From Prorocentrum cordatum (Eukaryota): a stretch of DNA of 55,187 bases. The notes under the pieces are model-generated. The model did no database searches. It was not told the DNA's origin and saw only the letters and a list, made by a program, of their open reading frames with translations. Below, piece by piece: positions 1,688-32,153 of this stretch. The DNA lies in assembly GCA_963575745.1 (NCBI GenBank), contig CAUYUJ010000178.1, positions 62,001 through 117,187 of the forward strand, written 5' to 3'. Each line of letters starts with the position of its first letter. Position 1 is the first letter of the stretch. Both the position numbers and the translations under genes were made by a program.

Positions 1688-2364
1688 TACAATGCCCAAC
1701 AGCAGTTCCTGCTCATTTTGAACAGGGCTCGCTGTCCGCGCCGCCGCGGCCCGTGTCCATTGGAAGCAGAAGGGCGCCTGCCCAACAGCGGCCGCTGTCG
1801 ATTTGGGACAACATTTTCTCCCGGATAGCTCCTCAGAGCTAGGAGAGGCTTGTTAGATCAGAAGCCGGAGCCGCAGGGTAGCCCCAGAGATCGTTTCGGC
1901 AGCGGTCCAGGCTCCCCGGCGCAATTTGCTTGAGCCAGAAACCGTCAACAAAACGACTCGGGATGAAGAACTGGTCCCCGGGAAGGGGTCGAGACCTCTG
2001 GGGACCTAGACCCCCGACGTCATGATTTTTTCATGACGTCGACCCCAAAGGTCTGGACCCCTTCCTCGGGTCCGGTGTTTCGTCCTGGGCCGTTTTTGGA
2101 CGGTCCCCAGGCCCGGTAAGGACCTCCAAAGGCCGAAAATATAGAAAAATGTGCCGTCGTGTTTTTCATGACCCGACGGGGCCTGGGGATCGGCGTCATG
2201 CAAAAATCATGACGTCGGGGGTCTGGGTTGAGATCCTGGCGTCTCAACTGGGAGCAAGGAAAGGCGACACCAACACCAGCAGCGAGGGCCCTCAGAGGCC
2301 GAGAGTAGCGAGAAAACCTCCCATGGTGATTTTCTCATGCTTCGAGGGGGGTCTCGCGATCGCA

Positions 2365-5724: not shown

Positions 5725-8700
5725 CACTACGTCGTGGAGTGCTACAACGGCAACGGCGGCAAGCAGACGGTGAAAGAGAAGATTCAGAAGTCCTCCGCAC
5801 ACATCCTCCTGCTGCAGGAAATAGGGTTTTGCGAAGGCGAGCTGGAATCTATGTTCTCATGGACGCATGCTCGAGGATGGAAGATGATGGCAGTTCCCAG
5901 TCGTCCCAGTCGAGCAAGCTCAGTTCGCAACTCCTGCTCTGCTGGAGTTGCCGCTTTGGTTCGCAATGACCTTGGGCTCAGGGCACCAGTTCACCATGAC
6001 CACGTGGTTTTCCCTCATCGCTGCCAGCACGTGATTATCGATATGCCAGGCTGGCCGCCTTTGCATGTGATCAATGCATACCTCAAGGATGGCATCGGCG
6101 TGACGGGGGTAAACAGCGATATTCTTTCTCGTATGGGACTTCTATTTGCTCAGATCCATGTTCCTTTCGTTGCTGGTGCTGACTGGAACATGTCTGTGAC
6201 TGAACTCGAGAGCTCAGGTTTCCCAAAACTGGCCAACATCACCATGGCAGTACCGTAGCAGGTTACATGCCGTGGTGGAACAGGAGCGTCGACCATCGAC
6301 TATTTCGCGTTGAACGATGCTGCGCTGCGAGGTTTTCAGGGCGTGGAGGCCGACATGCGTTGGAGCAAGCGTCCTCACCGACCAGCGTTGCTCAAATTAC
6401 TCGACCACGGGCAGAAGATTCGGCATTTCATATACACGGTCACGCCTGCTCTTCCTGTTGAACGTATTACAGGGCCGCTTCGTGAGGGCCCGACATGGTC
6501 CACACACTGCATCTTGGCGAACACGTGCTTGGACATGGCTCTTGATGAGCACAGTGATGTTGCGGTGGCCTGGGCGCTTCCATCGAGACTGTGGGGACAG
6601 TTCGCGGTCACTGCCGCGATGGAGGTTGCCCATGCGACAGGATGCGATCTAGTGCAAGCAGGTTGTTTTGGGCGCAATTTACACCCGAGGTGGGCAGATG
6701 CAAGCTACCAGGAGAAGCCTGATTTGACGGCTCAAGCGGTGGCTGATGGGTGGCAGTGGTTATCAACAAGTCTAACTACGATTACTCAGCTTTTCAGAGG
6801 AACCCAGCACCTGGAGCAATGTTCTGAAGAGATCGATAATTTCCTTGCCACTCCTTACAGTGGCCAACGGCTAAGCGGAAGATTGGACGCATCGGTTTCG
6901 CAGGCTCGAACGATGGTTGCATGCACACCGATGGATGTAGACGACATCATCCAGTTCGTCGAAGAGATCGCAGATGACGTCGATTTCGCCAGTAAAGCTA
7001 AGATGCGAGATATTACGGAGGCATGGGAATGCCGGTGTATCGAAGCTGCTGCCGAGGGCGCCAGGGCCCTTCATCGGGTGACGAAGGTGCGCAAGATACC
7101 TGTTCCAGCCGTATCGCAAGGTGAAGTTGTCTCGGGCGACCCACGAGACATCGTTCAAGGTGAAGTTGATGCATACCGCAGACTCTGGAAGGCGACCGAC
7201 ACGGCACCTCTCGCATGGATACCAGATCGCACCACATGCCCGAGGCTGTCGCCAGACCAGATCCGAAAAGTTGTGATGACATTCCCCAACGGAACGGCCT
7301 CTTCCTTTGATCATTTTCACCCGCGACATGCCCTGCTCTTGGGAGACTCTGGTTTGGAGGTTCTCAGTTGCATCTGGATGGTACCGGAGGCCATCGGAAT
7401 GCTGCCCAAGCAACTATGCTGGATTCAGATGCCGATGTTAGGCAAGCCCGCCGGAGGCAATCGCTTGATCATCTTGCATGCTGGCATGCACAGGGTCTGG
7501 CAGCGAGCCAGGCGCAGCATGGTCTCTGGAGTGGTAGACAGTTTGGACCGAAAGTTCTGGGGAGCGTCCAGGGGCAGATCAGCAATCGACTGTGCATGGC
7601 TTCAAGCAGCACGAGCTGAAGCCAACCAGGCAGACTCCCTTCACTCAGCATTATGGGTCATCGAGTGGTCCAAGTATTACGAGTCGATTCCATTGCCGTT
7701 GTTGCGTGTGAAGTGTATTCGTGTGGGGGTCCCGACATGTTGGCTCAAGCTGGTGTGCAACACCTGGAGAGCGCCACGAATCATTCGCTGCGGCCGCCAT
7801 CACGCACTGGTCCCACTGTATGCTGAGCACGGTCTTCCAGCTGGAGATAGATGGATTTGCGGATTTTGCGATAAAGATACGTTCAGTGGTGGAAATGGAT
7901 GCCTTTCTCCATCGCTGTCCCACTGTCACCATGCTGGACTACATTGATGACACGGCCATCGGAAATGCCTCGTCCTCGTTCGACATTGCGAAAGGGGTCG
8001 CAGCGCAGTCGTTCACGGAGTTTCGTGACATGCCCAAGTCCACCAATGCCACGCCCAACGTAGACAAGGTAGCGCTCATAGCCTCGTCGAAGGAGCTCGG
8101 CAGGGCCATCTGCCAGGAGGTATGGGTCGGCTTGGACGTGATCAAGGACAGCGTCGCGTACCTGGGGGTGGACGAGACGGCAGGTCTCAAGAGATCCGCT
8201 CGTGGAGCAAGGCCGACACAAAAGAGTAGATTTGCAGCTGCACGTCTGAGGCTTAGGAAAGTCAAGCGTTTTAGACGAGTTGCTCGAGGAGGTGAAAAGG
8301 AGGCCCCGTTCGCCAAAGTCTTTGGAGCTGGGGTTTCACCAGCCAGCAGTTTTGGAGCCGAGGTTACTGGTTTGAGCCTCAGCGAATGGAAGTCCCACCA
8401 GAGACTGCAGGGCTGCGCTTTTTCGCCTGCCCACGGAGGGGTGTCTCTGTCGGCGAAGCTAGTCCTGTTAGGGGACCACAGTTTCAAAATCGCAGTCGCC
8501 CCAGCATTGCAGCGGTGTAGAATGATCTGGTTTGCGACGACACAGCCCCTGAGAGCGCTAGCCAGTCGTGGTGAGTTGTTGCGTCTCTGGGACGCGGCGA
8601 GGCCTCTGGAGGCTGGTCCGCGGTGCGCCTCGAGGGGGGCCTTTGGCTCGCGCGGTGCTAGTGCTCTCAAGGGCGGGTTGGGAGGCCAGGGGCCCACTTG

Positions 8701-11273: not shown

Positions 11274-11445
11274 ACAGTGGAGGCCCATGCCTAGAAACAC
11301 CCTGCTTGCCTCGAGGGTGCCTTGGTTTTCTTGGATTTCGATGGTTCTGCGATGGAGAGCGCAACACTCCCACGCCAAAACTTAATGGACGTCCTGGGGT
11401 CTCAGGGTGGGGGTTTTTGTGGAAGGTTTCTTGTGGACTGGCCCC
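11274..11445 (+). mobile_element. MITE family D (CAGTGG... terminus, TA flank), 3' end disrupted
   Basis: Starts ta-cagtggaggcccatgcc. Homologous to 32781-32957, 48233-48408 and 51537-51712. Confidence 0.7.
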
Positions 11446-12541
11446 CCAAGCCATCCGACGTCCCGGTTTTTTCAAGACACGGGCCTTTGACCTCCCGACC
11501 ACTTCCCCGGGACCGGTGCTTCATCCCGAGTCGTGTTTCGACGGTCCCGAGGCCCGGCGAGGGCCCCGGGAGGCCGAAAAGTACGAAACAGATCCGTCCC
11601 GATTTTGTCGAGGCGCCCGAGGTCAGCGGAGGTCTGGGGGGGCGGATGGCTCGTCGAGGCGGCGGCGGCACCCCAGCTGCCGCTTCAGGCTGCCCCTCTG
11701 GGCCTTCCGGGGGAGGCGGCTCGTCGCCGCACGCGGCTGGCTTCGCCCCGGAGAACGAGCTACGGGGCGGACCTGGAAGGACCCAGACATCGGGCGCCTC
11801 GAAAAAATCGAGACGGGATGTTTTTCGTCGTTTTCGGCCTCCGGGGGCGCTCGCCGGGCCTCGGGAGCGCCAAAAAACGACTCGGGATGAAAAACCGGTC
11901 CCGGGGAAGTGGTCGGGAGGTCGGGGGCCCACGCATCGGAAACATTGGGGCGGCCGGATGTCTGGGGAGGGGGGGCTAGTGAAGGGAGGGGGGAAGGCGC
12001 CCCTGCTTCTTGGAAGGCGCGGGCCTTCTATCTGTAGATGTGGGGCCGGCGCCTTCCAAGAAGCAGCCCCCTTTCGAAGAAGTCTCCCCCCCTCCCCCTG
12101 CCCCCTTGGGCGCGCCGCCAACCCAGACATCCGGCCGCTCAAATTTGTTCGATGCGTGGGCCCCAGAGGTCTGAACCAGTTCCTCAGGGCCGGGCTGTTC
12201 GCCCTGAGTCGTTTTTTGGGGGCTCCCGAGGCCCGGCGAAGGCCCCCGGAGGCCGAAATCAGCCCAAGTCCGCCCGCTCCAAGGTCTGGGGAGCGTGGGA
12301 TCCCTGGGAAGCTGTGCGGCCGTGGGCCGTGGCGGGAGAGCCGCCGTTGTCTCGTCGGGCCCTCCTCCGAGTCGCCGCCTTCGACCGAGCAGCGGGCGCT
12401 GGGCCGGGCCCATATCCCGTCGCCCTGGGCAGCGCCCGGCGCGGACGGCTCACCTGGGGCAGTGCTCGTTGGGTGTGGGCTCGGGCCCCGGAGGTCCCAC
12501 GCATTGAAAAAATCAGGACGGAGGTTTTTCGCAGCTTCTGG

Positions 12542-12590
<49 letters not shown>

Positions 12591-12598
12591 GTATATAT

Positions 12599-12629
<31 letters not shown>

Positions 12630-14679
12630 GGGGGGGGGGGGGCCCTCGCCGGGCTCCAGGACCGTCAGAGAACGGCTCGGGATGCAAAGCCGGGCCTGGG
12701 GAATGGGTCGAGACTCCCGGGGACGCCGCACTGAAAGCATCACGACGTCGCATCGCTTCGGCCCCTGGGCTCGAACTCGGGCTGGAGCTCCGGGCGCCAG
12801 AGACGGGGGCACCGCAGACGGGCGCACGGGGAACGCCGATATTCCCACGTTTGGCCACGCCCCCGTTTTTTCGGGGGCCCTTGGGCGCCGCGGACCGGGG
12901 GCACCGGAAAGGGGGGCATACGGAACAGCCTAAGCCCCCGTGTAGCTAAACCCCGTTCCCAGACATGCGACGTCCTGACTTTTGTAAGCCCAGACCCCCT
13001 CGAGCAATGAAAAAATCACGACGGGAGGTTTTTCCTAATTTTTGGCCTCTGGGGGCCCTTACTGGCCCTCGGGACCGTCAAAAAACGACTCAGGACGAAG
13101 AACCGGTCCCGGGGGATGGGTCCAGACCGCGGGGGGTCGACGTCATGAAAAATTCATGACGTCGGGGGTCTGGGTTTCCAGACATGCGACGCCCTGACTT
13201 TTGTAAGGGCGGCGTCCCTGGAAGTCCCGACCCTTCCCCCGGGACCGGTTTTTCGTCCCGAGCCGTTTCCTGACGGCCCCGAGGCCCGGCGAGAGCCCCT
13301 CTAGAGGCCGAGGTTGGCCAAAGTCCTCCCGTCCTGATTTTTGTTACCACGTGATCGTGTCGATCCGACGTCTCGATTTTTTCGAGACGCGGGCCCCCGA
13401 CCTCCCGACCACTTCCCCGGGACCGGTTTTTCATCCCGAGTCGTTTTTTGACGGTCCCGAGGCCCGGCGAGGGCCCCTAGAAGCCGAAAGCGGCGAAAAA
13501 CCTCCGTCTTGATTTTTTCAATTCGTTGGATCCCCAGTCGTGGGGCGAGAGGTTGAAAACGACGAGGAACCTCCGCCTCGATCTGTTCCCAGACGACCGA
13601 GGTCTGGGTCTGCGAGGCCCGGTCGCGCCCGTGGGCTCGGGCACTGCGCTCGGGGCCCCCACGACTGGGGATCCAACGCATTGAAAAAATCAAGACGGCG
13701 GTTTTTCGCCGCTTTCGGCTTCTATAGGGGCCCTCGCCGGGCCTCGGGACCGTCAAAAAGCGACTCGGGAGGAAACACCGGTCCTGGGGAACGGGTCGAC
13801 ACTGCCGGAGACCCCGCATTGAAGACATCACGACATCGGATCTCTGAGCCTGCGCGCTCGAGCCCACTGCGCTCCCAGACCTCCGACGTCGTGATTTTTT
13901 CATGACGTCGACCCCCAGAGGTCTGGACCCTTTCCCCGGGACCGGTTTTTCATCCTGAGTCGTTTTTTGACGCTCCCGCGGCCCGGTGAGGACCTCCGGA
14001 GGGCGAAAATAGCGAAAAACCTTCCGTCGTGATTTTTTCACGACTCGAGGGGGTCTGGGCTCGGGCCTGCGCTCGGGCGGCGCGTCTCGGGCCCGCTGCC
14101 GCCGGGCCTCCACGGGCCCAGCTGAGCTCCGCGCCGGCCGGGGCCGCCTGCCGCCCTCGGTCGCGCTCTCTCGGCGCCACTGCCCTCTCCTGGTCGGCTT
14201 GCGTCGGGTTTCGGGCCCCATGGGCCTCGAGAGAGATCCAACGCACTCCAAAAGATCCAGGAAAAAATCCAGATGGAGGTTTCTCGCAGCTTGTGGCCTC
14301 TATATGGGGCCCTCGCCGGGCCCCGGGACCGTCAAGAAAGGACTCGGGAGGAAGAGCCGGTCCTGGGAATGGGTCGAGATTGCCGGAGACCCCGCACTGA
14401 AAAAATCAGATCTCTGGGGGGTTCGGGTTTTCGTCGGGTTTCGGGGTTCGTCGGGTTTTCGTCGGGTTTCGGGCCCACGTTTGGATCGATCTGCAGGTCG
14501 GTCCGGCTCGAGAAGCGACCCCTACGATAGGGGGTCCAGGGCTCCAGAGGTGACTCTTCGCGATGTCTCCACGGTGTCGCGCCATCGGACCTCAGAGGAG
14601 GAGCGAAGGAGCTGCCGCAGCTCCCGCCCGTGCACCCAGACATCCGACGTCTCGAATTTCTCAGCACGAGGGCTCCCGA

Positions 14680-15670
14680 CCGCTTCCCCGGGACCAGTTT
14701 TTCGCCCTGCAGTCGTTTTTCGAGGGTCCCGAGGCCCGGCGAGGGCCCCGCGAGGCCGAAGACGAGGAAAAATGAAGCGCCGCCCCGAGCGTTTCGAGAC
14801 GCCCGATGCCTGAAGAGGGCCCGACAGGAGAGGCGTCGGGAGGGGCGGCGGCGGCGGGAGCGGAGCGGCGTCGGCGACGTCGGCGGCTGCGGCGTCGGGG
14901 GAGCCCCGAGATCCGACGGCGCGAGCAAAGGGAGACATCGCGAGAGGCCACCTCCGCAGCCCTAGAGACCCCCCCCCTCAGAGATCGGACGTCGTGATTC
15001 TTTGCAATCCCAGAGGTCCAACCTATTGAACAAATCGAGAAGGAGGCTTTTCAGAATTTTTGGCCTCTTTAGGGGCCCTCGCCGGGCCCCGGGACCGTCA
15101 AAAAACGACTCAGGATGACAAACCGGTCCTGGGGAATGGGTCGAGACTGCCGGAGACCCCGCATTGACAAAGTCACGCCCATTCCCCAGGACCGGTTTGT
15201 CATCCTGAGTCGTTTTTTGACGGTCCCGGGGCCCGGCGAGGGCCCCTAAAGAGGCCAAAAATTCTGAAAAGCCTCCTTCTCGATTTGTTCAATAGGTTGG
15301 ACCTCTGGGATTGCAAAGAATCACGCCTTCACGATTTGTTCAATAGGTTGGACCTCTGGGATTGCAAAGAATCACGACGTCCGATCTCTGAGGGGGGGGG
15401 TCTCTAGGGCTGCGGAGGTGGCCTCTCGCGATGTCTCCCTTTGCTCGCGCCGTCGGATCTCGGGGCTCCCCCGACGCCGCAGCCGCCGACGTCGCCGACG
15501 CCGCTCCGCTCCCGCCGCCGCCGCCCCTCCCGACGCCTCTCCTGTCGGGCCCTCTTCAGACATCGCGATCGTCTCGAAACACTCGGGGCGGCGCTTTATT
15601 TTTCATCGTCTTCGGCCTCGCGGGGGCCTCGCCGGGCCTCGGGACCCTCGGGGAAGTGGTCGGGAGGTCG
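14680..15670. repeat. ~1 kb inverted duplication (palindrome) with a short spacer at ~15141-15177
   Basis: 14811-15140 is the near-exact reverse complement of 15178-15558. The right arm has an extra ~45-bp tandem duplication. ORFs 14806-14997(+) and 15372-15563(-) translate almost identically. Confidence 0.92.
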
Positions 15671-16116
15671 GGAGGCCCTCCTCCTGAAAAAAGTGCGGAA
15701 CAAATCCGCGCTGATTTTTCCTGCAATTATTACGTTATATCTCTGGGGCCGTGCTGCTTCACTTCTCGAGGCGGGTCGGCCTGTGAGGGCCCCGGGGCCC
15801 GCAGCCCGACGAGGCCGCCCAGCTCGGAGAAGTGGGGGCGCCAGGATCTCGCAGCCCAGACATCGGGCGTCTCGAACAAAATCGAGACGAGGGTTTTTCG
15901 TCGGTTTCGGCCTCTCGGGGCCCTCGCCGGGCCCAGGGACCGTCAAAAAGCGACGCGGGATGAAAAACCGGTCCCGGGGAAGTGATCGGGAGGTCGGGGG
16001 CCCACGTCTCGAAAAAATCGAGACGTCGGATGTCTGGGAGGGGAGGCCGCCGGGAGCGCAGACGTTACCCCCGCGACGTCGTTGTTGGGGCGAAGCGTCT
16101 CGGCGCGCCTATAGAC

Positions 16117-16271
16117 TTAAGTCGGGCCTGTCCCTCTACAGGGGGGATATTCAAAAATAGTCAAAAAATAGTCCGGGGACGATTTTCTGACTTTTTTTGA
16201 GCATTTGGGGGTATTTTGTAAGTCATTTCTTTCGCCAAAAATCCCCTTGTAGGGGGACACGCCCGACTTAA
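16117..16271. mobile_element. MITE family A, intact, 8-bp TSD
   Basis: ttaagtcgggcctgtccctctacagggg...ccccttgtagggggacacgcccgacttaa with a perfect TSD ctatagac (16109-16116 and 16272-16279). Confidence 0.92.
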
Positions 16272-16997
16272 CTATAGACCGACAAAACAATGCTCTAAGG
16301 ACCTTCTGCGGTCTGCACGGAATGTTCTCAGAACATTTCTTGTTGAGACTGTTTTGTTGGAACACATCGGGCGTGTATGTTCTAAGAGCATTGTTGTTGT
16401 TCTTAGAACATTCTCGGATTCTAGAACACGTCGTGCTAGGCCTATAGGATTGCCGTGACGGTCGGTCCCTGCTCACTACATAGCGTCGACGCCCGGAGGT
16501 TCGGGCCCAGACACGATCGCGTCGTGAAAAAATCATGGCGCGAGGTCTTGGGCCATGCTCGGCCTCGGGGGGCCCTCGCCGGGCCTCGAGACCGTCGAAA
16601 AACAGCTCAGGACGAAAAACTGGTCCCGGGGAAAGGGTCGGGACTGCCAGGGACGCCGTCCCGGAGAAAATCGGGACGCCGCCTGTCTGGGGACCTTGCC
16701 CCCAGGCCAAGTCCTTTTCGTTGACGGCCCCGAAGGCCCGGCGAGGGCACCCGGAGGCAGAAAACAGCGCAAAAGCCTCCCGTCGTGATTGTGCTCCTAG
16801 ACATGCGACGTCCTGAGTTTTTCGGGGCGGCGTCCCTGGAAGTCCCGACCCTGTCCCCGGGCCCTGCGTCTCATCCCGAGTCGTTTGTGTTACGGTCCCG
16901 AGGCCCGGCGAGGGCCCCTGGAGGCCGAAAATCGTGAAAAAACCTCCCGTCGTCATTTTGTTCATGATCAAAGGGGGTCTGGGAGGAAGGCCGTCGG

Positions 16998-17232
16998 TCT
17001 ATGCCTCCTATATGGGGTCGGGGCAGATGGGGTCGGAGGATCGCCAGTGCATCGCCGATGCATCGCCGATGCGGCTCGATGTGGAGCCCGATTTGCTTCA
17101 CGTCGACGTCGCCGATGCATCGCCGACGTCGACGATGCATCGTCGGTGCATCGCGGATGCATCGCCGATGTATCGGCGGTGCGGCGCGATTCTCCGACCC
17201 CATCTACTCCGACCCCATCTAGGAGGCCTCTG
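16998..17232. mobile_element. MITE family F (~40-bp TIR, internal catcgccgatg palindromic repeats), 5-bp TSD
   Basis: gcctcctatatggggtcgg...ccgaccccatctaggaggc with TSD gtcgg. An empty version of the same site lies at ~17452-17490, and a second copy at ~26575-26745. Confidence 0.8.
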
Positions 17233-17861
17233 GTCGGGGGAGCTGTCGGGGGAGCCCTGGAAATCCCTACCCTTGCCCCAGGACCGGTTTTTGATCCTGA
17301 GTCGTTTTTCGACGGTCCCGAGGTCTGGCGAGGGCCCCCCGAGGCCGAAAACGGCCAAAACACCTCCCGTCGTGCTTTGTTCATGACTCGAGGGGAGAGC
17401 ATACTGATTTTTAAAAAACGACGCGATCATGTCTGGGTTCATGACTCGAGGGGGTCTGGGAGGAAGGCCGTCGGGGGAGCCGTCGGGGGGGGGGCCGGCG
17501 GGCGGGGATGGGGCGGTCCATAGGCGGCCAGGGCACGGCGTCGCAGCCGCACGGCCCAGCTCCAGCAGCCTGCAGCTGGCGAGCGCAGCCGCACGGCCAC
17601 GTGGGCAACGACGACGACGACGACGAGAAAAGAGGAGGAGGAGGAGGAGGAGGAGGAGGAGGAGACGGAGGAGGAGGAGGAGGAGGTAGGAGGAGGAGGA
17701 GGAGGAGGGAGGGAGAGGAGGGAGGGAGGGAGGCGAGGAGGAGGAGGGAGGAGGAGGAGGAGGAGGAGGAGGAGGAGGAGGAGGAGGAGGGGGGGGAGGA
17801 GGGGGTGCTGTGAGGATCGCTGCGACAGGAGGAGAAACGCCTGGCTGCGAGCCAGCCCCAG

Positions 17862-24780: not shown

Positions 24781-26574
24781 GTTCTGTGCGCCGTTGTCGT
24801 AGCTGGCTACACACAGTTGTCATGCATGCTGTTTTGTGGGAAATGTGTGTGCGTGATGTTTTCGTCGGTATCCATAGAGGTGGCCCCAGTGCTAGTGCCG
24901 ACCTCTGTTGAGTTATATACAACCAATGAAAGTAGACCGATATCCGTTGGACAAAGTTGTTGGGACCCATTGCAGGGACGCTTCAATGATTGCTGGGGTG
25001 TGGTTCTCAATCATAAGGAAGGTGAGAAAGAGAAGGAGACGTGCATGGAGGAGGCATAGGAGCAGGAGGGAGGGCAAGGCAGCCAGCGATCAGCGATCAG
25101 CCCCATGAGGACGCCACCAGTGAGCAGCCGCCAGCAGCGTGGCAGGCGGCAGAGGGAGCAGAAGAGCGCGCTGGGGTGAGGCTGCGCGTTGACATTTGGA
25201 GAGGGAAGCACATTGAGAGCGCATCGGAGGAGTAGAACGATGTTATCACCATCTCGGTTATGCAGCCAGTGTTGCCTAAGCGGTCACCTGCAGCACAAGT
25301 TCAGAGCGCGGCAAGCCACGACCAGCCGCTTCGGGTTGAGCGTCACGGTGCCCAGGAGAATGTTGACCGAGTCCTCGTTCTTCTACCATGCCAGGACCCT
25401 CGGGATGACCAGAGTTTGGTGCACGAGCTGAGAGGAGAGGAGGAAGAGGCCCGAGGGAGCAGGAGGCGGAGGCAGGGAGGGAGCAAGATAGGGAGCTCAT
25501 TGTCGGGCGTCGGAGGACGAGCAGGAGAGGCACGAGGACCAGGTGGCCTGGGCGAGTGCAAACAGCAAGGCCCGAGTGCAGTCACGTGGGGACGCTTCGC
25601 TGCCTGACCTCCCGGGGCCCGCGCAACCCGCAGGACCACACACACACGCACACACACCAACTAAAAGCAAGGCGAGCCCCCAAGATGTTCGCTGGGGGGT
25701 TCTTCGAAGCCCTCCTGGCTCCTGGGAGGCCTCTTTGGAAGCCGCCGGGCCTCATTGGGAAGGCCCGCGCAGGCCCGCTCACAGACGGCTTCGATCTGCC
25801 CCAGGGGCGCACTGCGCGTCCGTAGCCGCGTCGCGCTCGCGCAAGCTCGTGGGTCGGTTGCCCTTCCCCCTCCAGCTCCCCCTCCTCCTCCGCCTCCTCC
25901 TCCTCCTCCTCCCCTCCTCCTCCTCCTCCCCCTCCTCCTCCTCCTCCTCCTCCTCATCCTCCTCCTCCTCCTCCCCTCCTCCTCCTCCTCTCCTCCTCCT
26001 CCTCCTCCTCCTTCTCCTCCTTCTCCTCCTCCTCCTCCTCACTCCTCCTCCTCAAGGGTGCTGCCAGAAGTGCCCCTGGCCCAAGGTGCCCCGAGGATTT
26101 CCCAAGAGGCCCCCATGGCCTCCAGAGCACCCTGCTGAGGCCCAGAGGGCCCCAGGGGCTCCAGGACGAAGACCCCAAAAACATATGAAAATATATGAAA
26201 TATTGTTATTTGTGTGTATTTATGTGTGTGTGTGTGTCCCAGGGCCCCTTCAATATCGCCCCCCCAAGAGGTGGCAAGGTTTTTTGGTTCAGGGTTTCCG
26301 GAACTCGCCATCTGGGTCACCAGCATTCACCACCAATTGCGATTACTTGTCTTCTACCGACCCCCAGCATTCACCACCAATCACGGCCATCCAGTCTTCA
26401 CCTCCAGTCCTCGACCTATTCCTGTCGACCTCCAGCCTCGAGGGCAAGATCTTCAGCTTCAAGGGCAAGATATCGTGGAAGCTGCCACAATTAAACTTGA
26501 GAGCAAGATCGAGCTGGACCTACGATCGGGCCTCATTGTCTGACGCTCCGACGCTCTGGCGCCTCTGCCCATGT

Positions 26575-26745
26575 TCTAGGCCTCTTAGATGGGGTCCGAG
26601 TAGATGGGTCGGAGGATCGCGCTGCATCGCCGATGCATCGACGATGCGGCTCGATGTGGAGACCGTGTTTCCCCACGCCGACGTCGCCGATGCATCGCCG
26701 ACGTCGGCGATGCGGCGCGATCCTTCGACCCCATCTACTCGGACG
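26575..26745. mobile_element. MITE family F, truncated copy
   Basis: Homologous to 16998-17232. Confidence 0.75.
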
Positions 26746-26829
26746 TCCCGAGCCTTCTTGATCCTCCTCCTCCTCCTCCTCCTCCTCCTCCTCCTCCTCC
26801 TCCTCCTCCTCCTCCTCCTCCTCCCTTTG

Positions 26830-26859
26830 CCTTTCTGGCTCAAGCCGTCCTGGCTCAAG
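26830..26859 (+). other. Two tandem relic dinoflagellate spliced leaders
   Basis: cctttctggctcaag (13/15) and ccgtcctggctcaag (12/15) against CCATTTTGGCTCAAG, the 3' 15 nt of DinoSL. They end 67 nt upstream of ATG 26927. Confidence 0.85.
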
Positions 26860-26926
26860 CCACACGCCACGCCCACGGGGCGCGGCGCGCCAGGACAGGG
26901 CGCGCACCCGAGGCGTGGGCCAGCCG

Positions 26927-29900
26927 ATGTCGGGCTCGCCGCCGCCCGCTGCGGAGTGGACCTCGCCGGCGCCGGCGGCCGAGGCCCGGCCCGCGGCGCC
27001 CGCGCGGGCGGAGTGGCCGCGCTTCGACCGCCCCCAGACCCGCGGCGCGCTGCCGCCGCCGATGGAGTGCTCGAGCCCCCCCGCCTCGCCCCGCCGCGTG
27101 AGCCTCGCCCCGCCCGGGCCGCCGGGCGCGGCCGGCCCCGACCAGGCGGAGCCGCGCGAGGAGGAGGAGGAGGAGGAGGAGGAGGAGGAGGAGGAGGAGG
27201 AGGAGGAGGAGGAGGAGGAGGAGGGAGGAGAGAGGAGGAGGAGGAGAGGAGGAGGAGAGGAGAGGAGAGAGGAGGAGGGAGGAGGAGAGGAGGAGGAGGA
27301 GGAGGGAGGAGGAGGGAGGAGGAAGAGCAGACGTGGAGGAGGAGGAGGAGGAGGAGGAGGAGGAGGAGGAGGAGGCCGGCGCCCCGCAGGAGGCCGGGCC
27401 GTGGGGCACGGTGGGCCCCGAGCGCGTGCGGTCGCCCGGCCCGCGGGCGGCGCACCTGCAGGAGGCGCGGGGCGGCGCCGGCGGCGGCAGCCTTCGCTCG
27501 TCGGCCGCGCCGCGGCCGCGGCCGTCGGGGGCTTCGGGCGCGTGCGCCGCGGGCGGCGCGGGCTTCCGGGACAGGCTCGAGGCGCTGGCGGCCACGCACG
27601 ACCTGGAGGTGGCGGACCTGCGGGGCGAGGTGCGCAGACGTCGGGCGTCTCGGGCAGAAGCGGGGCGGAGGCGTGCCGCCGTGCTCGGCCTCCGCGGGGC
27701 CCTCGCCGGGCCTCGGGGCCGTCAGAAAGCGACTCGGGGTGCGGTCCCGGGGAAGCGGTCGGGAGGTCGGGGGCCCGTGTCTCGAAAAAGTCGAGGCGTC
27801 GGATGTCTGGGGAGGTGGTGGACCTGCGGGGAGGGGTCATCGTCTTGCAGAACCAGGTGGAGCAGTACAGGTCGCTCCTCCACAGGGCGCAGGACAGTTT
27901 CGGGCGGATCTGTGGGGAGCTCCCGTCGGCTGCGGGCGAATGGCCTGCCGTGTCTGACCTGATGCAGGAGATCGCCAGCGAGATGGCGGGCGAGATGCAG
28001 GACGTTTGGGGCAATGCTGCCGACGGCACGCCGAAGGCATCGTGCTGCCCCTCGCAGGTTGGCGTCGTCGCAACGACGCCCGCGCGCAGCGCCACCCAGA
28101 AGCGGGCAACCGCCGTGGCCCTGAACAGCAAGTTGAACAAGGCGACGTCGAGGCAGGTGTCAGCAGTCATGCCGCCCGCAGCTCGAAGGGCTCTGACGCG
28201 CAACCTCTACCAGCAGCAGAAGAAGATCAAGGGCTCCTCGGTAAATCTGGACGGGACCTACCTGCAGCGTTTTGTTGGCCACTGTTCGTTCGACTTGGTT
28301 TGCGCCTGCATGATAATCACAAATTCTATCATCATCGGCGTTGAGGTCCAGTGGCTGACTACGCACGAGACAGAGCTGGCGGCGACCAAAATCTTGGGCC
28401 TGCTGTGCAGCTGCTTCTTCTTCATCGAGCTGGTGCTCCGCATCGTCGCTGATGGCATGCGACACTTCTTCGTCCTCTCCGACAACAGAAACTGGAACTG
28501 GTTCGACTGTGTTCTTGTGGTGATGTCGGTCTTCGACGGCGTGTCGCTGGCGGACGCTGGTGTAGCGGCCTCCACCGTCGGGGCGGGCGCGGGCTTCAAG
28601 ACCATCAAGATATTGAGGATTGTCCGCGTTGTGCGGGTATTCCGCTTCTTTAGCAAGCTCAGCCAGCTGGCGTTCATGATCATAGATTCTGTCAAGTCGT
28701 TGATGTGGGCCCTCGTCCTGTTGGGACTCGTCATTTACGTGTTCGCCATCTTCTTCACGCACTACACCACCGAGCACATCAGGCGCCAGGGGAAGGGTAA
28801 CACGTCCATCCATATCGATGAGCACTTCGGCAACCTGTGGTTGACTCTGTTCACCCTATTCCACACCATGCTCAACGGCATCAGCTGGTACACTCTACCG
28901 TCCGCGCTGTACACCATCCCTGGTTGGACAGGTCCGTTCTTGGCATTCGGATTTGTATGCTATCTGTCGTTCACCATGCTCGTCGTGATGAATATCATTA
29001 CTGGTGTGTTTGTGGACAACGCAGTGCAGACGGCTGGCACGCAGCGGGAGTTTCTGGTGCAGAAAGAGATGGAGGTCAAGGAGCAGTGGCGCAGCGAGAT
29101 GCGCAGCATCTTCCTGGAGATGGACGCCGATCGCTCCGGGACGGTGAGCAGGGAGGAGGTGTCGGACTTCTGCAACCACGAGCGCGTGCAGCACTACCTC
29201 ACCGCGCTCGGGCTGGACGTGCACGACACGGAGCGGCTGTTCGAGCTCCTCGACGTGAACCACGACGGCGAGCTCGACGTGGACGAGTTCCTGGACGGGT
29301 GCCTGCGCCTCAAGGGCGTGGCCCGCAGCATCGACGTCTGCAGCCTCATCCACCAGTCGCGCCCTCAGTGGGCCCCGGAAACGGCAGGGCCGTTCACCGT
29401 TTCCGAAAGAGCGTGCCCCTTGAGAATGGAACCGGCAAAACACCGGCGACCGGGAACGGCAACAGGATTGGAGCCGGAGCGGGGACCCGTGAAAGAACGG
29501 CGACGGAACCGGTAAAAAAACGGCCTTGCCGTTCCCGGGGCCGGAACCGGAACCAGAGCCGGAACCGGTAAAAGAACGGCGTCGGAACCGGCAAAAAAAC
29601 GGCTACTTCCCGTTTCCGGGGCCCACTAAGGTCGCGCCTGCTGTGCCGGCGCGTCGACGGCATCGACTCCACGCTGCGCACGCACCTGGGCAGCGCCAGG
29701 CACTCGGGCATAGCCAGGACCCGGGTAAGGGGACCCGGGTAGTGGTATGGCCCCGAAGCCCCCAAATTGTCCAGAATCACTAAGCCAGGTCTGCCGTAGC
29801 TGGTGTTTTGTCGGGTGGCGGCAGTTCCGGATAGTGGAACGGGGCGGGGGGGGCGTCCCCCAGTACACATCCCCAGACATCCGACGTCTCGATTTTTTCG

Positions 29901-30190
29901 AGACACGGGCCCCGGACGTCCCGACCACTTCCCCAGGGCCGGTTTGTCGCCCCGAGTCGTTTTTTGACGGCCCCGAGGCCCGGCGAGGGCCCCGAGAGGC
30001 CGAAAACGACGAAAAACCTCCGTCTCGATTTTTTCGAGACGCCCGATGTCTGGGTCACTGAACCAGGTACCACTAAACCCAGTTCTGCCAACGCCCGAGG
30101 CACCCCCGGCGCACCCTCCGCAGCCCGAGCAGGGCGGAGCGGCCGCCCTCGGCCCGGTCGGACCCCGCCGGCTTGGCGCAGCAGCGTTAG
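26927..30190 (+). CDS. Single-domain (6TM) voltage-gated cation channel with two C-terminal EF-hands; predicted exons 26927-27160, 27375-27629, 27815-29355, 29631-29699, 30100-30190 (729 aa)
   Basis: S2 FFFIELVLR, S3 WNWFDCVLV, S4 KTIKILRIVRVVRVFR, pore TLFHTMLNGISW, S6 MNIITGVFVD. EF loops DADRSGTVSREE (29123-29158) and DVNHDGELDVDE (29252-29287). The exons sum to 2190 nt, stay in frame and end at TAG 30188-30190. The core exon is well supported; the terminal exons are inferred. Confidence 0.88.
27161..27374 (+). repeat. (GAG)n tract interrupting the channel CDS; candidate GA-AG intron
   Basis: The protein-like frame changes across the tract (214 nt, not a multiple of 3). Boundaries are gag|ga ... 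ag|g. Confidence 0.55.
27633..27811. mobile_element. MITE family C copy forming a predicted GT-AG intron (27630-27814)
   Basis: cgcagac...gtctggg flanked by the direct repeat gaggtg (27627-27632 and 27812-27817). Removing 27630-27814 restores the frame. Confidence 0.85.
29364..29630. mobile_element. TIR element with 8-bp TSD forming a predicted GT-AG intron (29356-29630)
   Basis: TIR ctcagtgggccccggaaacgg / ccgtttccggggcccactaag (20/21) and perfect TSD gtcgcgcc. Internal ggaaccgg repeats. Confidence 0.9.
29703..30099. mobile_element. TIR element with 3-bp TSD forming a predicted GC-AG intron (29700-30099), with a nested MITE C (29872-30054, TSD tc)
   Basis: Ends ctcgggc...gcccgag with an imperfect longer TIR. 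TSD gca at 29700-29702 and 30100-30102. Confidence 0.75.
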
Positions 30191-30226
30191 AGCGCTCACG
30201 TCGCTCTCCTCCTCCCCAGAGATCCC

Positions 30227-30411
30227 CCCAGACCCCCTCGCGTCGTGAAAAATCACGACGGAAGGTTTTTCGCTATTTTCGCCCTCCGGAGGTCCTCACC
30301 GGGCCGCGGGAGCGTCAAAAAACGACTCAGGATGAAAAACCGGTCCCGGGGAAAGGGTCCAGACCTCTGGGGGTCGACGTCATGAAAAAATCACGACGTC
30401 GGGGGTCTGGG
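30227..30411. mobile_element. MITE family C (young subfamily) inserted at the end of another C copy (30412-30597)
   Basis: Near-identical to 32154-32339 and to the reverse complement of 13874-14059. Flanked by the 12-bp duplication cccagagatccc. Confidence 0.88.
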
Positions 30412-31135
30412 CCCAGAGATCCCACGTGTTGCAAAACAAAAATCGAGGCAGAGGTATTTCGAAGTTTTGGGCCCCTGGGGGCCCTCGCCGGGCCCCGGGG
30501 CCGTCAAAGAACGAATCGGGATGAAAAACCGGTCCAGGGGAATGGGTCGAGACTGCCGGGGACCCCGCAGGAAAAATCACGACATCGGATCTCTGGGTCC
30601 TTCCCTCGTTTTTAGCAGGCGGTCCGTTTCCCAGCAGTGCACCCCGCGATGTTGTCGTAGCTTCCATTCCCAGACTATTTTTTTGGCGCTCCGGTGCCAT
30701 CTTGCCGGGCCTTGGCGGCCCACAGCGGCAAGTTGCGTGCGTCGTGCGACCGGCAAGGCGATGGCGCCTGCTCCGATTTGCCCGTCCGAGTGGGCTGCGG
30801 CGTTCTCTCGGGGGGCGGGCGCGCCTGTCGCGGAGGCGGGCGCGGAAGAGAGAGCAGGTGCGGCAGCGTTCCCAGTGACGCGGGGCCTGGCGGCACAGGT
30901 GACGGACATAGTTTGCGCATCCAGGCCATCCAGACTTGATTTGTCGGCGATGTGTTGCGTTCTTTGTATACGGGAGTCCTCCTCGAAACAATGTTGCCTT
31001 GGATCTGTGACATTTGAAGGGGGCCTACCAATCGAATCACATGGGCGATCAGCCCGAGTGTGTCATCGATGTACCATGGCCGCACGCTCATGTGAGCTTA
31101 CGGTTGTTTAGCTTGGCCTAGAGAATTTGAATTGA

Positions 31136-31290
31136 TCAGGAGGGGAAAACACATACAGACACGAGTCATCGTCGATTCCCAGGAAAATATCGGAAAATAG
31201 GGGGAAGACGCAACCCCAGAAAATATTTGAAAATATCGGGAATATTGGGATTCGCACTTTTTTATATGTGTGTATTCCTGGGCCCCTTGA
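31136..31290 (+). mobile_element. MITE family E
   Basis: tcaggagggg...ccccttga with flanks attga/actga (4/5). Confidence 0.7.
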
Positions 31291-32153
31291 ACTGAGCGTG
31301 GTTTAGCTTGGACTAGGTTGTGCCTTGAGGTTTCCGGCATGGAACTGCCGCGCCATTAAGCTAGACTTCTCTCGACTGTCGGGCGAGTCTGCATTGGCCA
31401 GACACAGCCAGCCACGAGTTTGGCCACGCGGCCTGTCACAGGCAGGTGCAGGAGGAGATGGAAGATCAACAGGGCGGGGGGGCGATGAGGATGATGGGGG
31501 ATAGGAGAGGATCATCGCAGACACGCGTTTTCCAGGTTGCGTCATCTGCGGCGGCTTCATTGTAGGACAAGACGCCACACTGGTTTTGGTGCAAACCGCC
31601 GCATTTGCGGCGACTCGACCCAGTCGCGCACGCAAACGCTCTTCCGCCAATTATGTTGATGCCGCGGGCGTGTGAAGCATGCTCTGCGCCTCGGCTGCCA
31701 GTCCCCATTTGCGATCCTTTCCCCCTGCCTGCGTTCCCTCTCTGGTCCTCCAGCTGTCTACCTCCTTGCAGCACATCCAGGTTGCTGACTTCGTCGCAGA
31801 AGTGCGAGTCCCGATCGTCCCCAGAGGGCCGCCATGGAGAAAAACAATGAAAAGAAGTTCTCAAAACAGTTAAACAATGCATGTTGCAAATTTTCGTTAA
31901 ATACAAAAAAAAACACACAAAAAAACACACACCTACAAAAAAAAAAAAAAAAAAAAAAACTTTTCGAGCCTCCCGCCCCGCGGGGCGAAGCACCACGCGA
32001 TCCGCTCGCAAGGCGTACCGAGTCGCATGGGCCGCCGCGGCGACACGCCAAGCAAGGGTGTCCGACCGCACGGCCCTCGTCGCGTCGCCGCCGCTGCTGG
32101 AGGCATCCGGAGGGTGCACTCGGCAGGCGCGGGCGCTCGTCGGGCTCCAGCTA

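What the first reader, a model, noticed from the sequence alone, without database searches (positions are those of the whole stretch)
26830..30190. A recycled mRNA being re-intronised: three consecutive introns are three different intact DNA transposons
Seen: the channel gene carries spliced-leader relics and one 1.5 kb exon, as expected of a retrocopy. Its three downstream interruptions are complete TIR elements with 6-, 8- and 3-bp direct repeats. In each case, removing the element plus one repeat copy falls exactly on GT-AG, GT-AG or GC-AG boundaries with G as the next exon base, giving a continuous 729-aa ORF. Known: dinoflagellate genes are recycled through mRNA, and introner TEs create introns by co-opting TSD and TIR bases. 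Inferred: this locus captures intron loss followed by intron gain from several unrelated families.
Basis: partly seen in the sequence, partly recalled or inferred. Interest (0 to 1): 0.9.

Follow-up and report, generated by a model that had tools for sequence, protein, structure and literature searches.

The report
Transposon-made introns in a recycled dinoflagellate gene
An expressed dinoflagellate ion-channel gene that bears the marks of having once been copied back from mRNA has three introns that are each a small transposon plus one copy of its target repeat, a clean example of a process already described genome-wide in dinoflagellates.

Summary
Two tandem spliced-leader relics lie 68 nt before the start codon. 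The three interruptions each equal a hairpin-forming element with terminal inverted repeats plus one flanking repeat copy (6, 8 and 3 bp). Contigs of 4 public runs carry the predicted junctions: introns 2 and 3 in 4 of 4, intron 1 in 3 of 4. The public Prorocentrum cordatum protein model uses the same three junctions.

Corrections:
- The "729-aa ORF" is not reproduced. A fourth intron, GC-AG and made of a (GAG)n tract (27146-27389), is needed and gives 719 aa.
- The elements are non-autonomous and partly degenerate. Intron 3 carries a nested copy of intron 1's family.
- Intron 1's family normally makes 2-bp repeats. Here a 27-nt duplication supplies both splice sites and adds 7 residues that 5 of 5 homologues lack.
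- A non-canonical 379-nt gap removes two further elements from the 3' UTR RNA.

Introner-made introns are published for dinoflagellates and noted for this species. This is a new member of a known kind, of moderate interest.

The parts
26830..26844 (+). Spliced-leader relic 1 (CCTTTCTGGCTCAAG), 13/15 to the 3' part of the dinoflagellate SL
   Evidence: 2 mismatches; SL sequence as printed in PMC5585692
26845..26859 (+). Spliced-leader relic 2 (CCGTCCTGGCTCAAG), 12/15, head-to-tail with relic 1
26927..27145 (+). Coding exon 1 from the first ATG after the relics (MSGSPPP...), 73 codons
   Evidence: The paralogue P0002 has the same MSGSPPP start.
27146..27389 (+). Intron A, 244 nt, GC..AG, next base G, phase 0. 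It is almost wholly a degenerate (GAG)n tract and is not a TIR element.
   Evidence: contigs X15 record 8 and X7 record 22 start aligning at 27387, and the loose end before 27387 equals window 27113-27142; the public model P0001 starts at 27390; its removal joins the ATG frame to the channel frame. The exact cut among the equivalent positions is inferred.
27390..27629 (+). Coding exon 2 (80 codons)
27630..27814 (+). Intron 1, 185 nt, GT..AG, phase 0. Both splice sites lie in the duplicated target GAG|GTG.
   Evidence: joint in X1 and X7 (side 22) and in X15 (side 240). P0001 uses it.
27633..27811 (-). MITE (small non-autonomous hairpin transposon) of the abundant CCCAGAC...GTCTGGG family, 179 nt, TIR 15/20, 82% identical to the copy nested in intron 3
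27605..27631 (+). Left copy of the 27-nt target duplication flanking the MITE (right copy 27811-27837, 89%)
   Evidence: it corresponds to a 7-residue insert unique to this protein.
27815..29355 (+). Coding exon 3, 1541 nt: 6-TM Ion_trans domain plus an EF-hand pair
   Evidence: PF00520 1.9e-27; EF-hand families; contigs with 0 differences.
29356..29630 (+). Intron 2, 275 nt, GT..AG, phase 2. The 5' site is the start of the target repeat; the 3' site is the element's last bases (..CTAAG).
   Evidence: joint in 4 of 4 runs, and zero depth over 29383-29604 in all four..
29364..29630 (+). TIR element, 267 nt, TIR 20/21, 8-bp target repeat GTCGCGCC (29356-29363 and 29631-29638), internal 23-nt and 79-nt sub-repeats. 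No other copy in the window.
29631..29699 (+). Coding exon 4 (69 nt)
29700..30099 (+). Intron 3, 400 nt, GC..AG, phase 2. The 5' site comes from the 3-bp repeat GCA; the 3' site is the element's end (..CCCGAG).
   Evidence: joint 29697->30098 with 6 equivalent letters, in 4 of 4 runs..
29703..30099 (+). Composite host element: terminal 7/7 inverted repeat CTCGGGC/GCCCGAG, about 68% over 44 nt with gaps, carrying a nested MITE
   Evidence: No other copy in the window.
29872..30054 (+). Nested MITE of intron 1's family, TIR 18/20, 2-bp target repeat TC
30100..30190 (+). Coding exon 5, ending in stop TAG at 30188-30190
30223..30601 (+). 379-nt stretch missing from RNA contigs (3' UTR), bounded by the repeat TCCC, with no GY..AG at any equivalent cut. 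It contains MITE A (30227-30411) and most of MITE B (30412-30597).
   Evidence: joint 30222->30602 in 4 of 4 runs, side 99..

Best explanation
This is an expressed gene of a Prorocentrum-type dinoflagellate. It encodes a 719-residue single-domain voltage-gated cation channel with a C-terminal EF-hand pair.

Two tandem spliced-leader relics just upstream show that an ancestor of the locus was reverse-transcribed from mature mRNA. Later, small non-autonomous transposons that fold as hairpins inserted into the coding sequence. Each is removed by the spliceosome because the insertion itself supplied the splice sites.
- Intron 1: the duplicated target contains AG|GT, so the donor lies in the left copy and the acceptor in the right copy.
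- Intron 2: the 8-bp target repeat starts with GT and the element ends in AG.
- Intron 3: the 3-bp repeat gives GC and the element ends in AG.

Splicing therefore restores the pre-insertion reading frame. Intron 1 is the exception: 21 nt of a 27-nt duplication remain and add 7 residues.

Shown here: the anatomy, the junctions in RNA contigs, and the open frame. Inferred: that the spliceosome does the removal, the order retroposition-then-insertion (supported only for intron 1), and that the original retrocopy was intron-free.
For: - Relics: (tandem, 2 and 3 mismatches).
- Protein family: (Ion_trans 1.9e-27, EF-hand families).
- Element anatomy.
- End-to-end hairpins: widest pairs 2-184 of 185, 9-275 of 275 and 4-400 of 400.
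- RNA contigs: introns 2 and 3 joined in 4 of 4 runs and intron 1 in 3 of 4. The bridging contigs have 0 differences from the window (X15 record 8: 240+561 nt; X1 record 7). Depth over 29383-29604 is zero in all four.
- The public model P0001 is 100% identical and uses the same junctions.
- Homologues align without a gap across the intron-2 site in 3 of 5 sequences covering it (P0003, P0004, P0008). P0005 and P0007 diverge there.
- A GY..AG cut at all three joints by chance: about 3e-4.
- With intron A removed the ORF is 719 aa with no internal stop and GC3 of 0.88.
- Of 17 variant sites in other runs' contigs, 8 are synonymous and 9 are not, over 361 synonymous and 1178 non-synonymous sites. 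That gives pN/pS of about 0.34.
- The 7-residue insert at intron 1 is absent from 5 of 5 homologues covering the site.
- Published parallels: classes with an 8-nt GHN6 target repeat and element ends TAAG, 3-nt classes, and AGGH classes in Polarella (10.1101/2020.10.14.339549, Results read). Introner elements are reported as enriched in P. cordatum introns (PMC10666404, passages).
Against: - All runs were contigs, so splicing efficiency, strand and transcript ends are unknown. Three of the four runs are not on record as RNA.
- A spliced mRNA and a transcript of a transposon-free duplicate would look identical at introns 2 and 3.
- At least one close second variant is expressed (5 differences in 28978-29111 in X7 and X15).
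- No other copy of the intron-2 element or of intron 3's host element was found in the window. The metagenome scan gave only chance matches. Their status as repeated families is therefore unproven.
- No genome is held, so empty sites in paralogues and introns elsewhere made by the same families could not be examined.
- The intron-1 junction rests on 22-nt sides in two runs and on one 240-nt side.
- Intron A rests on alignment starts, one loose end, and the public model's start.
Confidence: 0.8

Rival explanations
1. The copy in the window is a dead gene hit by transposons. The joined RNA comes from a near-identical duplicate or allele that never received the insertions (empty sites), not from splicing.
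For: An empty site and a precisely spliced introner give the same RNA sequence at introns 2 and 3. At least two close variants are expressed in the same runs (records 12/13 and 26/27). Dinoflagellate genes are highly duplicated (PMC10666404, passages).
Against: - GT..AG, GT..AG and GC..AG, each followed by G, sit exactly at the boundaries (chance about 3e-4).
- The bridging contigs have 0 differences from the window.
- The RNA keeps 48 of the 54 duplicated nucleotides at intron 1. That fits AG|GT splicing but not a single-copy empty site, if the 27-nt duplication arose with the insertion.
- The frame is intact and variation is biased towards synonymous sites.
Confidence: 0.07
2. The transposon introns are real, but the 'intron loss then re-gain' story does not apply. 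The relics mark an old retroposition shared by the gene family. Alternatively the retrocopy kept introns (retroposition of partly spliced RNA), and the family may simply be intron-poor with sporadic insertions.
For: - Intron A is not a transposon.
- P0002 shares the leader region, so retroposition predates the paralogue split.
- Song et al. report equal intron numbers in retrogenes and other genes and suggest retroposition before splicing is complete (PMC5585692, passages).
Against: Introns 1-3 contain nothing but the element plus its target repeat, so they were created by the insertions. The 1541-nt uninterrupted exon carries the whole channel domain.
Confidence: 0.25
3. The 379-nt 3' UTR gap (30223-30601) is an artefact or a DNA variant rather than RNA processing. 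Possible causes are reverse-transcriptase template switching between the TCCC repeats across two stable hairpins, or a microhomology deletion allele.
For: No GY..AG at any of the 5 equivalent cuts. A 4-nt direct repeat bounds the gap. Two adjacent hairpins span 5-189 and 190-375 of the 379 nt.
Against: The joint is seen in 4 of 4 runs from at least 3 studies. It sits in the same contig as the intron 2 and 3 joints, at a depth similar to the coding contigs. It is not the clean empty site of MITE B.
Confidence: 0.5

Closest known systems
Introner-like elements of dinoflagellates (Roy et al., bioRxiv 10.1101/2020.10.14.339549, Results read; published in Curr Biol 2023, seen only as a citation)
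   Same: Non-autonomous TIR elements whose insertion creates an intron. One splice site comes from the target repeat and the other from the element end. Described classes include 8-nt target repeats GHN6 with ends TAAG/TAGG, 3-nt repeats, and AGGH repeats that supply both sites. GT, GC and GA donors are used, and G follows the acceptor.
   Different: Those classes were defined in Polarella and Symbiodinium from hundreds of copies. Here only single copies of two of the three element types could be seen, and no sequence homology to the published classes could be tested. Intron 1 comes from a general, very abundant family with 2-bp target repeats and an exceptional 27-nt duplication, not from a dedicated intron-making class.
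Introner elements reported in Prorocentrum cordatum introns (Dougan et al. 2023, PMC10666404, passages read)
   Same: Same species name as the 100%-identical public protein. Those authors define introner elements as introns with 8-20-nt inverted repeats and 3-5-nt direct repeats near their ends, and they report enrichment.
   Different: That paper gives genome-wide counts only. Its supplementary note and tables were not read. It draws no link to spliced-leader relics and gives no locus-level description.
Dinoflagellate retrogenes marked by spliced-leader relics (Slamovits and Keeling 2008, recalled and seen cited; Song et al. 2017, PMC5585692, passages read)
   Same: Tandem truncated SL relics within 100 nt upstream of the start codon. 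Multiple relics are read as repeated recycling.
   Different: Song et al. found that retrogenes have about as many introns as other genes and proposed retroposition of unspliced RNA. This locus shows another route for at least three introns: insertion after retroposition.
Identically repeated intron boundaries (Mendez et al. 2015, PMC5032977, abstract and two sections read)
   Same: 2-11 bp repeated at both intron ends and present once in the mRNA, with AG|G conserved.
   Different: Here the repeats are demonstrably target-site duplications of TIR elements.
Non-canonical introner elements of Amoebophrya (Farhat et al. 2021, PMC7789003, passages read)
   Same: The 3' UTR gap has a 4-nt direct repeat at its borders, hairpin-forming inverted repeats, and no GT-AG.
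   Different: Those are in a parasitic early-branching lineage that lacks a detectable U1 snRNA. Here the case is a single one in a core dinoflagellate, seen only in contigs, and an artefact or allele is not excluded.

Membership tests
Introner / introner-like element | Transposon hallmarks: terminal inverted repeats and a target-site duplication at the intron borders | tested here: met
   TIR 15/20, 20/21 and 14/20. Flanking repeats of 6, 8 and 3 bp.
Introner / introner-like element | The intron equals the element plus one target-repeat copy, with splice sites recruited from the repeat and/or the element end, and it is removed from RNA | tested here: met
   Lengths 179+6, 267+8 and 397+3. Joints in contigs of 3 of 4, 4 of 4 and 4 of 4 runs. 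The public model agrees.
Introner / introner-like element | Many similar copies in the genome | tested here: inconclusive
   Intron 1's family has 41 blastn hits and 18 near-full-length copies in 55 kb. The intron-2 element and intron 3's host element have no other copy in the window. No genome is held.
Introner / introner-like element | Copies of the same family form introns in other genes | not testable with these tools
   No genome. Only one clear coding region appears in the window by GC3.
Introner / introner-like element | Absence at the homologous site of relatives (a gain, not an old intron) | tested here: inconclusive
   At protein level only. The 7-residue insert at intron 1 is unique, with 5 of 5 homologues lacking it. 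Paralogue DNA could not be read.
Dinoflagellate retrogene (SL relic) | SL or a relic of 9 nt or more within 500 bp upstream of the ORF (criterion of PMC5585692) | tested here: met
   Two tandem 15-nt relics, 13/15 and 12/15, each with an exact 8-nt GGCTCAAG, 68 nt before the ATG.
Dinoflagellate retrogene (SL relic) | An identified parent with fewer relics and different introns | not testable with these tools
P0002 shares the leader region.
hAT-like MITE (intron 2 element) | 8-bp target-site duplication and short TIRs | tested here: met
   GTCGCGCC on both sides and a 20/21 TIR. That 8 bp points to hAT is from general knowledge; other superfamilies also make 8 bp.
hAT-like MITE (intron 2 element) | An autonomous partner with a hAT transposase and matching TIRs | not testable with these tools
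   No genome is held.
Voltage-gated cation channel superfamily, single-domain form with EF-hands | One Ion_trans (6-TM) domain above Pfam's threshold, plus an EF-hand pair | tested here: met
   PF00520 at 96.5 bits (cut-off 25); EF-hand_1, EF-hand_6 and EF-hand_7 above their cut-offs. The best solved relatives are CaV/NaV repeats and NaChBac.
Amoebophrya-type non-canonical introner (3' UTR gap) | A 3-5-nt direct repeat over the borders, an 8-20-nt inverted repeat near the ends, and no GT-AG | tested here: inconclusive
   Direct repeat TCCC, and no GY..AG. Between the removed ends only 6 nt (CCCAGA/TCTGGG) pair. The 11-nt perfect pair has its left arm in the retained part.

The most novel reading that the evidence does not exclude
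Two things at this locus go beyond the published introner picture.

(1) A core, free-living dinoflagellate may remove a pair of hairpin transposons from an mRNA at a 4-nt direct repeat without any GY-AG. That would be structure-guided or otherwise non-canonical excision, like that proposed for Amoebophrya.

(2) A hyper-abundant transposon family with 2-bp target repeats occasionally integrates with 12- to 27-nt target duplications. Such a long duplication, if it contains AG|GT, turns an ordinary transposon into an intron at once, at the cost of a few added codons.
Probability: 0.25. Interest if true: 0.6.

Novelty: new member of a known kind. Interest (0 to 1): 0.35.

Why it matters
The locus is a compact, checkable illustration of how dinoflagellate genes can regain introns after passing through mRNA. 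One gene shows three different ways of recruiting splice sites: both from the target repeat, donor from the repeat with acceptor from the element, and a GC donor from a 3-bp repeat.

It offers a concrete alternative to the idea that retrogenes carry introns because unspliced RNA was retroposed. My three literature searches found no paper that joins spliced-leader relics and introners explicitly, so the link may be worth a genome-wide test.

The process itself is known and the public annotation already has the junctions, so the locus alone changes little.

Tried and rejected
- Own-genome search: no genome is held for this window.
- Metagenome scan with the 18-nt core of intron 2's TIR: 10 loci, each with a single match and no further similarity to the element. 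These are chance hits.
- Earlier findings of this scan by place, sequence and words: nothing.
- Rfam on 26000-31500: no family.
- tblastn of five homologues against the window: no second channel copy, so there is no paralogue or empty site inside the window.
- GC3 screen for other coding regions, to test whether other copies of the transposon family sit in introns: only this gene stands out.
- Poly(A) remnant at the presumed 3' end (about 31145): only four A in the genome, uninformative.
- Retention of intron 1 as coding sequence: the frame from ATG 26927 is open through the element (862 aa). I rejected this because contigs join across it and intron A restores the frame.
- Parts of the stretch without contig cover and small depths inside introns 1 and 3 were not used. 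Other copies of the transposon family can produce them.
- The X1 joint 29871->30078, with 22 other letters between, hints at another copy of intron 3's host element. Its side is only 21 nt, too weak to count.
The 5' exon and intron A therefore rest on indirect evidence.
Full report
**What is there**

Window 26830-30190 lies in a G+C-rich region. It holds the only long open frame in the 55-kb window with a strong coding signature (GC3 of 0.80 or more). The 1541-nt exon 27815-29355 encodes one Ion_trans domain (PF00520, 1.9e-27) followed by an EF-hand pair. The nearest solved relatives are single repeats of CaV/NaV channels and NaChBac.

A protein 100% identical to this exon is in the public collection as 'unnamed protein product, partial [Prorocentrum cordatum]' (P0001, 646 aa). 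Paralogues of 84% to 56% identity exist in the same species and in metatranscriptomes.

**Spliced-leader relics**

Two head-to-tail 15-nt matches to the 3' part of the dinoflagellate spliced leader lie at 26830-26844 (2 mismatches) and 26845-26859 (3 mismatches). They sit 68 nt before the first ATG, at 26927. The leader sequence is the one printed in PMC5585692.

The number of matches in the window is not significant on its own: 3 against 1.45 expected, and 17 of 100 shuffles reach 3. The exact tandem spacing, equal to the relic unit left when a new leader is spliced onto an old one, and the position fit published retrogene criteria (PMC5585692, passages).

The paralogue P0002 shares the region between the relics and the start, and the MSGSPPP start itself. 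Retroposition therefore predates that duplication.

**The three interruptions**

- *Intron 1* (27630-27814, 185 nt, GT..AG) is a 179-nt MITE (a small non-autonomous hairpin transposon), 27633-27811, plus 6 nt. Its family has termini CCCAGAC...GTCTGGG.
- *Intron 2* (29356-29630, 275 nt, GT..AG) is a 267-nt element with a 20/21 terminal inverted repeat, plus one copy of an exact 8-bp flanking repeat, GTCGCGCC. The donor GT is the start of the repeat. The acceptor AG is the end of the element (..CTAAG).
- *Intron 3* (29700-30099, 400 nt, GC..AG) is a 397-nt composite plus the 3-bp repeat GCA. Its ends are a perfect 7-nt inverted repeat that decays to about 68% over 44 nt. It carries a nested copy (29872-30054, 2-bp repeat TC) of intron 1's family.

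These points rest.

All three fold end to end. The widest pairs are 2-184 of 185, 9-275 of 275 and 4-400 of 400. None encodes a protein, so they are non-autonomous. With terminal repeats of 15/20 and 14/20, two of them are not 'intact' in any strict sense. blastn finds no similarity between the three element types apart from the nested copy.

**RNA evidence**

I laid the contigs of four public runs on 27385-30700. One run is on record as poly(A) RNA, two are guessed to be RNA, and one is of unknown kind.

- The joints 29355^29631 and 29697->30098 were present in 4 of 4 runs. The second has 6 equivalent letters, so the GC..AG cut 29699^30100 fits.
- The joint 27626->27812 (GT..AG with the cut 3 further on) was present in 3 of 4. 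Two of those have only 22 nt on one side and one has 240 nt. The fourth run's contig starts at 27812.
- The bridging contigs differ from the window at 0 positions.
- No run covers 29383-29604, inside intron 2.

Contigs cannot give splicing efficiency, strand or transcript ends.

The public model P0001 uses the same three junctions. Three of five homologues covering the intron-2 site align across it without a gap; P0005 and P0007 diverge there. In a base-composition simulation, a GY..AG cut among the equivalent positions of all three joints has a probability of about 3e-4.

With only the three introns removed, the channel frame is open for 742 codons but has no ATG before codon 226. The upstream ATG at 26927 is in another frame. 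The '729 aa' figure is not reproduced.

One search points to a further intron, 27146-27389:
- Two contigs (X15 record 8, X7 record 22) begin to align at 27387, although the laid stretch starts at 27385.
- The letters before that place equal window 27113-27142.
- The cut 27146-27389 is GC..AG and is followed by G.
- P0001 starts exactly at 27390.
- Removing these 244 nt joins the ATG frame to the channel frame. The result is 719 codons plus a stop at 30188-30190, with GC3 of 0.88.

A contig running colinearly through the 64-nt pure GAG run is also unlikely for a 31-mer assembly. That point rests on my knowledge of such assemblers, not on a call.

This intron is almost wholly a degenerate (GAG)n tract, not an inverted-repeat element. 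The gene therefore has at least four introns, one of which is not a transposon.

**Intron 1 in detail**

Its family is extremely abundant: 41 blastn hits and 18 near-full-length copies in 55 kb. Of those 18, 10 have exactly 2-bp flanking repeats of any sequence.

The intron-1 copy is an exception. The duplicated sequence contains GAG|GTG. The donor lies in the left copy and the acceptor in the right copy.

Splicing removes the element plus 6 nt and leaves 21 extra nt. P0001 accordingly has a 7-residue insert that 5 of 5 homologues covering the site lack, including the 84% paralogue.

The simplest reading is a single insertion event with a long target duplication. An earlier 21-nt tandem duplication followed by an insertion with a 6-bp repeat needs the same number of base changes and cannot be excluded. 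Either way the insertion postdates the split from P0002, which shares the relic-side leader. This is the only direct support for the order 'retroposition, then intron gain'.

**Is the gene alive?**

The frame is intact. Seventeen variant sites appear in other runs' contigs; 8 are synonymous and 9 are not, over 361 synonymous and 1178 non-synonymous sites. That gives pN/pS of about 0.34. Some of these variants may belong to a close paralogue rather than an allele, since two variants coexist in X7 and X15.

**An unexpected joint**

All four runs also join 30222 to 30602 in the 3' UTR, within the same contig that carries the intron 2 and 3 joints. The 379 nt removed hold MITE A (30227-30411) and nearly all of MITE B (30412-30597). 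They are bounded by the direct repeat TCCC. None of the five equivalent cuts has GY..AG.

It is not the empty site of MITE B. With the nested A, B spans 30215-30597 and has the family's usual 2-bp repeat, TC. The RNA keeps the first 8-12 nt of B and lacks 4-8 nt beyond its end. The removed stretch folds into two adjacent hairpins, 5-189 and 190-375 of 379.

Three readings remain open:
- non-canonical excision of the kind described for Amoebophrya introner elements (PMC7789003, passages);
- template switching by reverse transcriptase;
- a microhomology deletion allele.

MITE A is itself flanked by an exact 12-nt repeat that equals B's terminus. This is a second case of a long duplication in this family.

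**Comparison with what is known**

Roy et al. (bioRxiv 10.1101/2020.10.14.339549, Results read) describe intron creation by transposons in Symbiodinium and Polarella. Their classes include 8-nt target repeats of the form GHN6 with element ends TAAG/TAGG, 3-nt repeats, and AGGH repeats that provide both sites. They also report GT, GC and GA donors and a conserved G after the acceptor. Introns 2, 3 and 1 here match those three schemes in turn.

Dougan et al. [quoted passage not shown] Mendez et al. (PMC5032977, abstract and two sections) described the identically repeated intron boundaries that such insertions leave.

Song et al. (PMC5585692, passages) found that genes with relics have about as many introns as others and suggested retroposition of unspliced RNA. 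This locus shows that insertion after retroposition is another route.

Three full-text searches found no paper that explicitly links relic-bearing retrogenes with introner-made introns. That covers only the library searched.

**Verdict**

The anatomy and the junctions are real and far beyond chance. The mechanism, transposons that bring or recruit splice sites, is the published introner mechanism, and the gene model is already public. The locus is a good new example rather than a new kind of thing. The full 'loss then regain' history is shown for one intron only.

Two items deserve follow-up with raw reads and the whole assembly: the non-canonical 3' UTR gap and the long target duplications of a family that normally makes 2-bp repeats.

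Noticed in passing
window 27146-27389: A GC..AG intron made almost wholly of a degenerate (GAG)n tract. If unspliced, it reads as poly-Glu in the ATG frame, so it may be a coding microsatellite that became an intron.
   Followed up: partly
window 30223-30601: A 379-nt stretch with two MITEs is absent from RNA contigs of 4 of 4 runs. It is bounded by TCCC, has no GY..AG, and is not a clean transposon empty site.
   Followed up: partly
window 30215-30226 and 30412-30423: An exact 12-nt repeat, CCCAGAGATCCC, flanks MITE A and equals the terminus of MITE B. With the 27-nt duplication at intron 1, this makes two long target duplications in a family that normally makes 2-bp ones.
   Followed up: partly
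window 11400-17400: A dense array of at least 14 copies and fragments of the CCCAGAC...GTCTGGG family within 6 kb.
   Followed up: no
window 26575-26745 and 16998-17229: A palindromic element of another family lies just upstream of the (CCT)n tract and the relics. It has relatives of 78-87% identity at 17 kb.
   Followed up: no
window 1929-1943, minus strand: TTTCTGGCTCAAG, a leader-like motif with the same T-to-C change as relic 1, lies next to a MITE. It may be another relic, or a hint that this species uses a leader variant.
   Followed up: no
window 28978-29111: Two contig variants (0 and 5 differences) coexist in runs X7 and X15. A close second copy or allele of the gene is expressed.
   Followed up: no
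alignment A1, columns 690-710 (window about 29350): Paralogues P0005 and P0007 diverge and are 6-7 residues longer exactly at the intron-2 site. Their loci may have a different exon border there.
   Followed up: no
window 7735-7749: A third 15-nt leader-like match (2 mismatches) lies inside a lower-GC stretch that looks like an open frame of another kind of sequence. It is probably chance.
   Followed up: no
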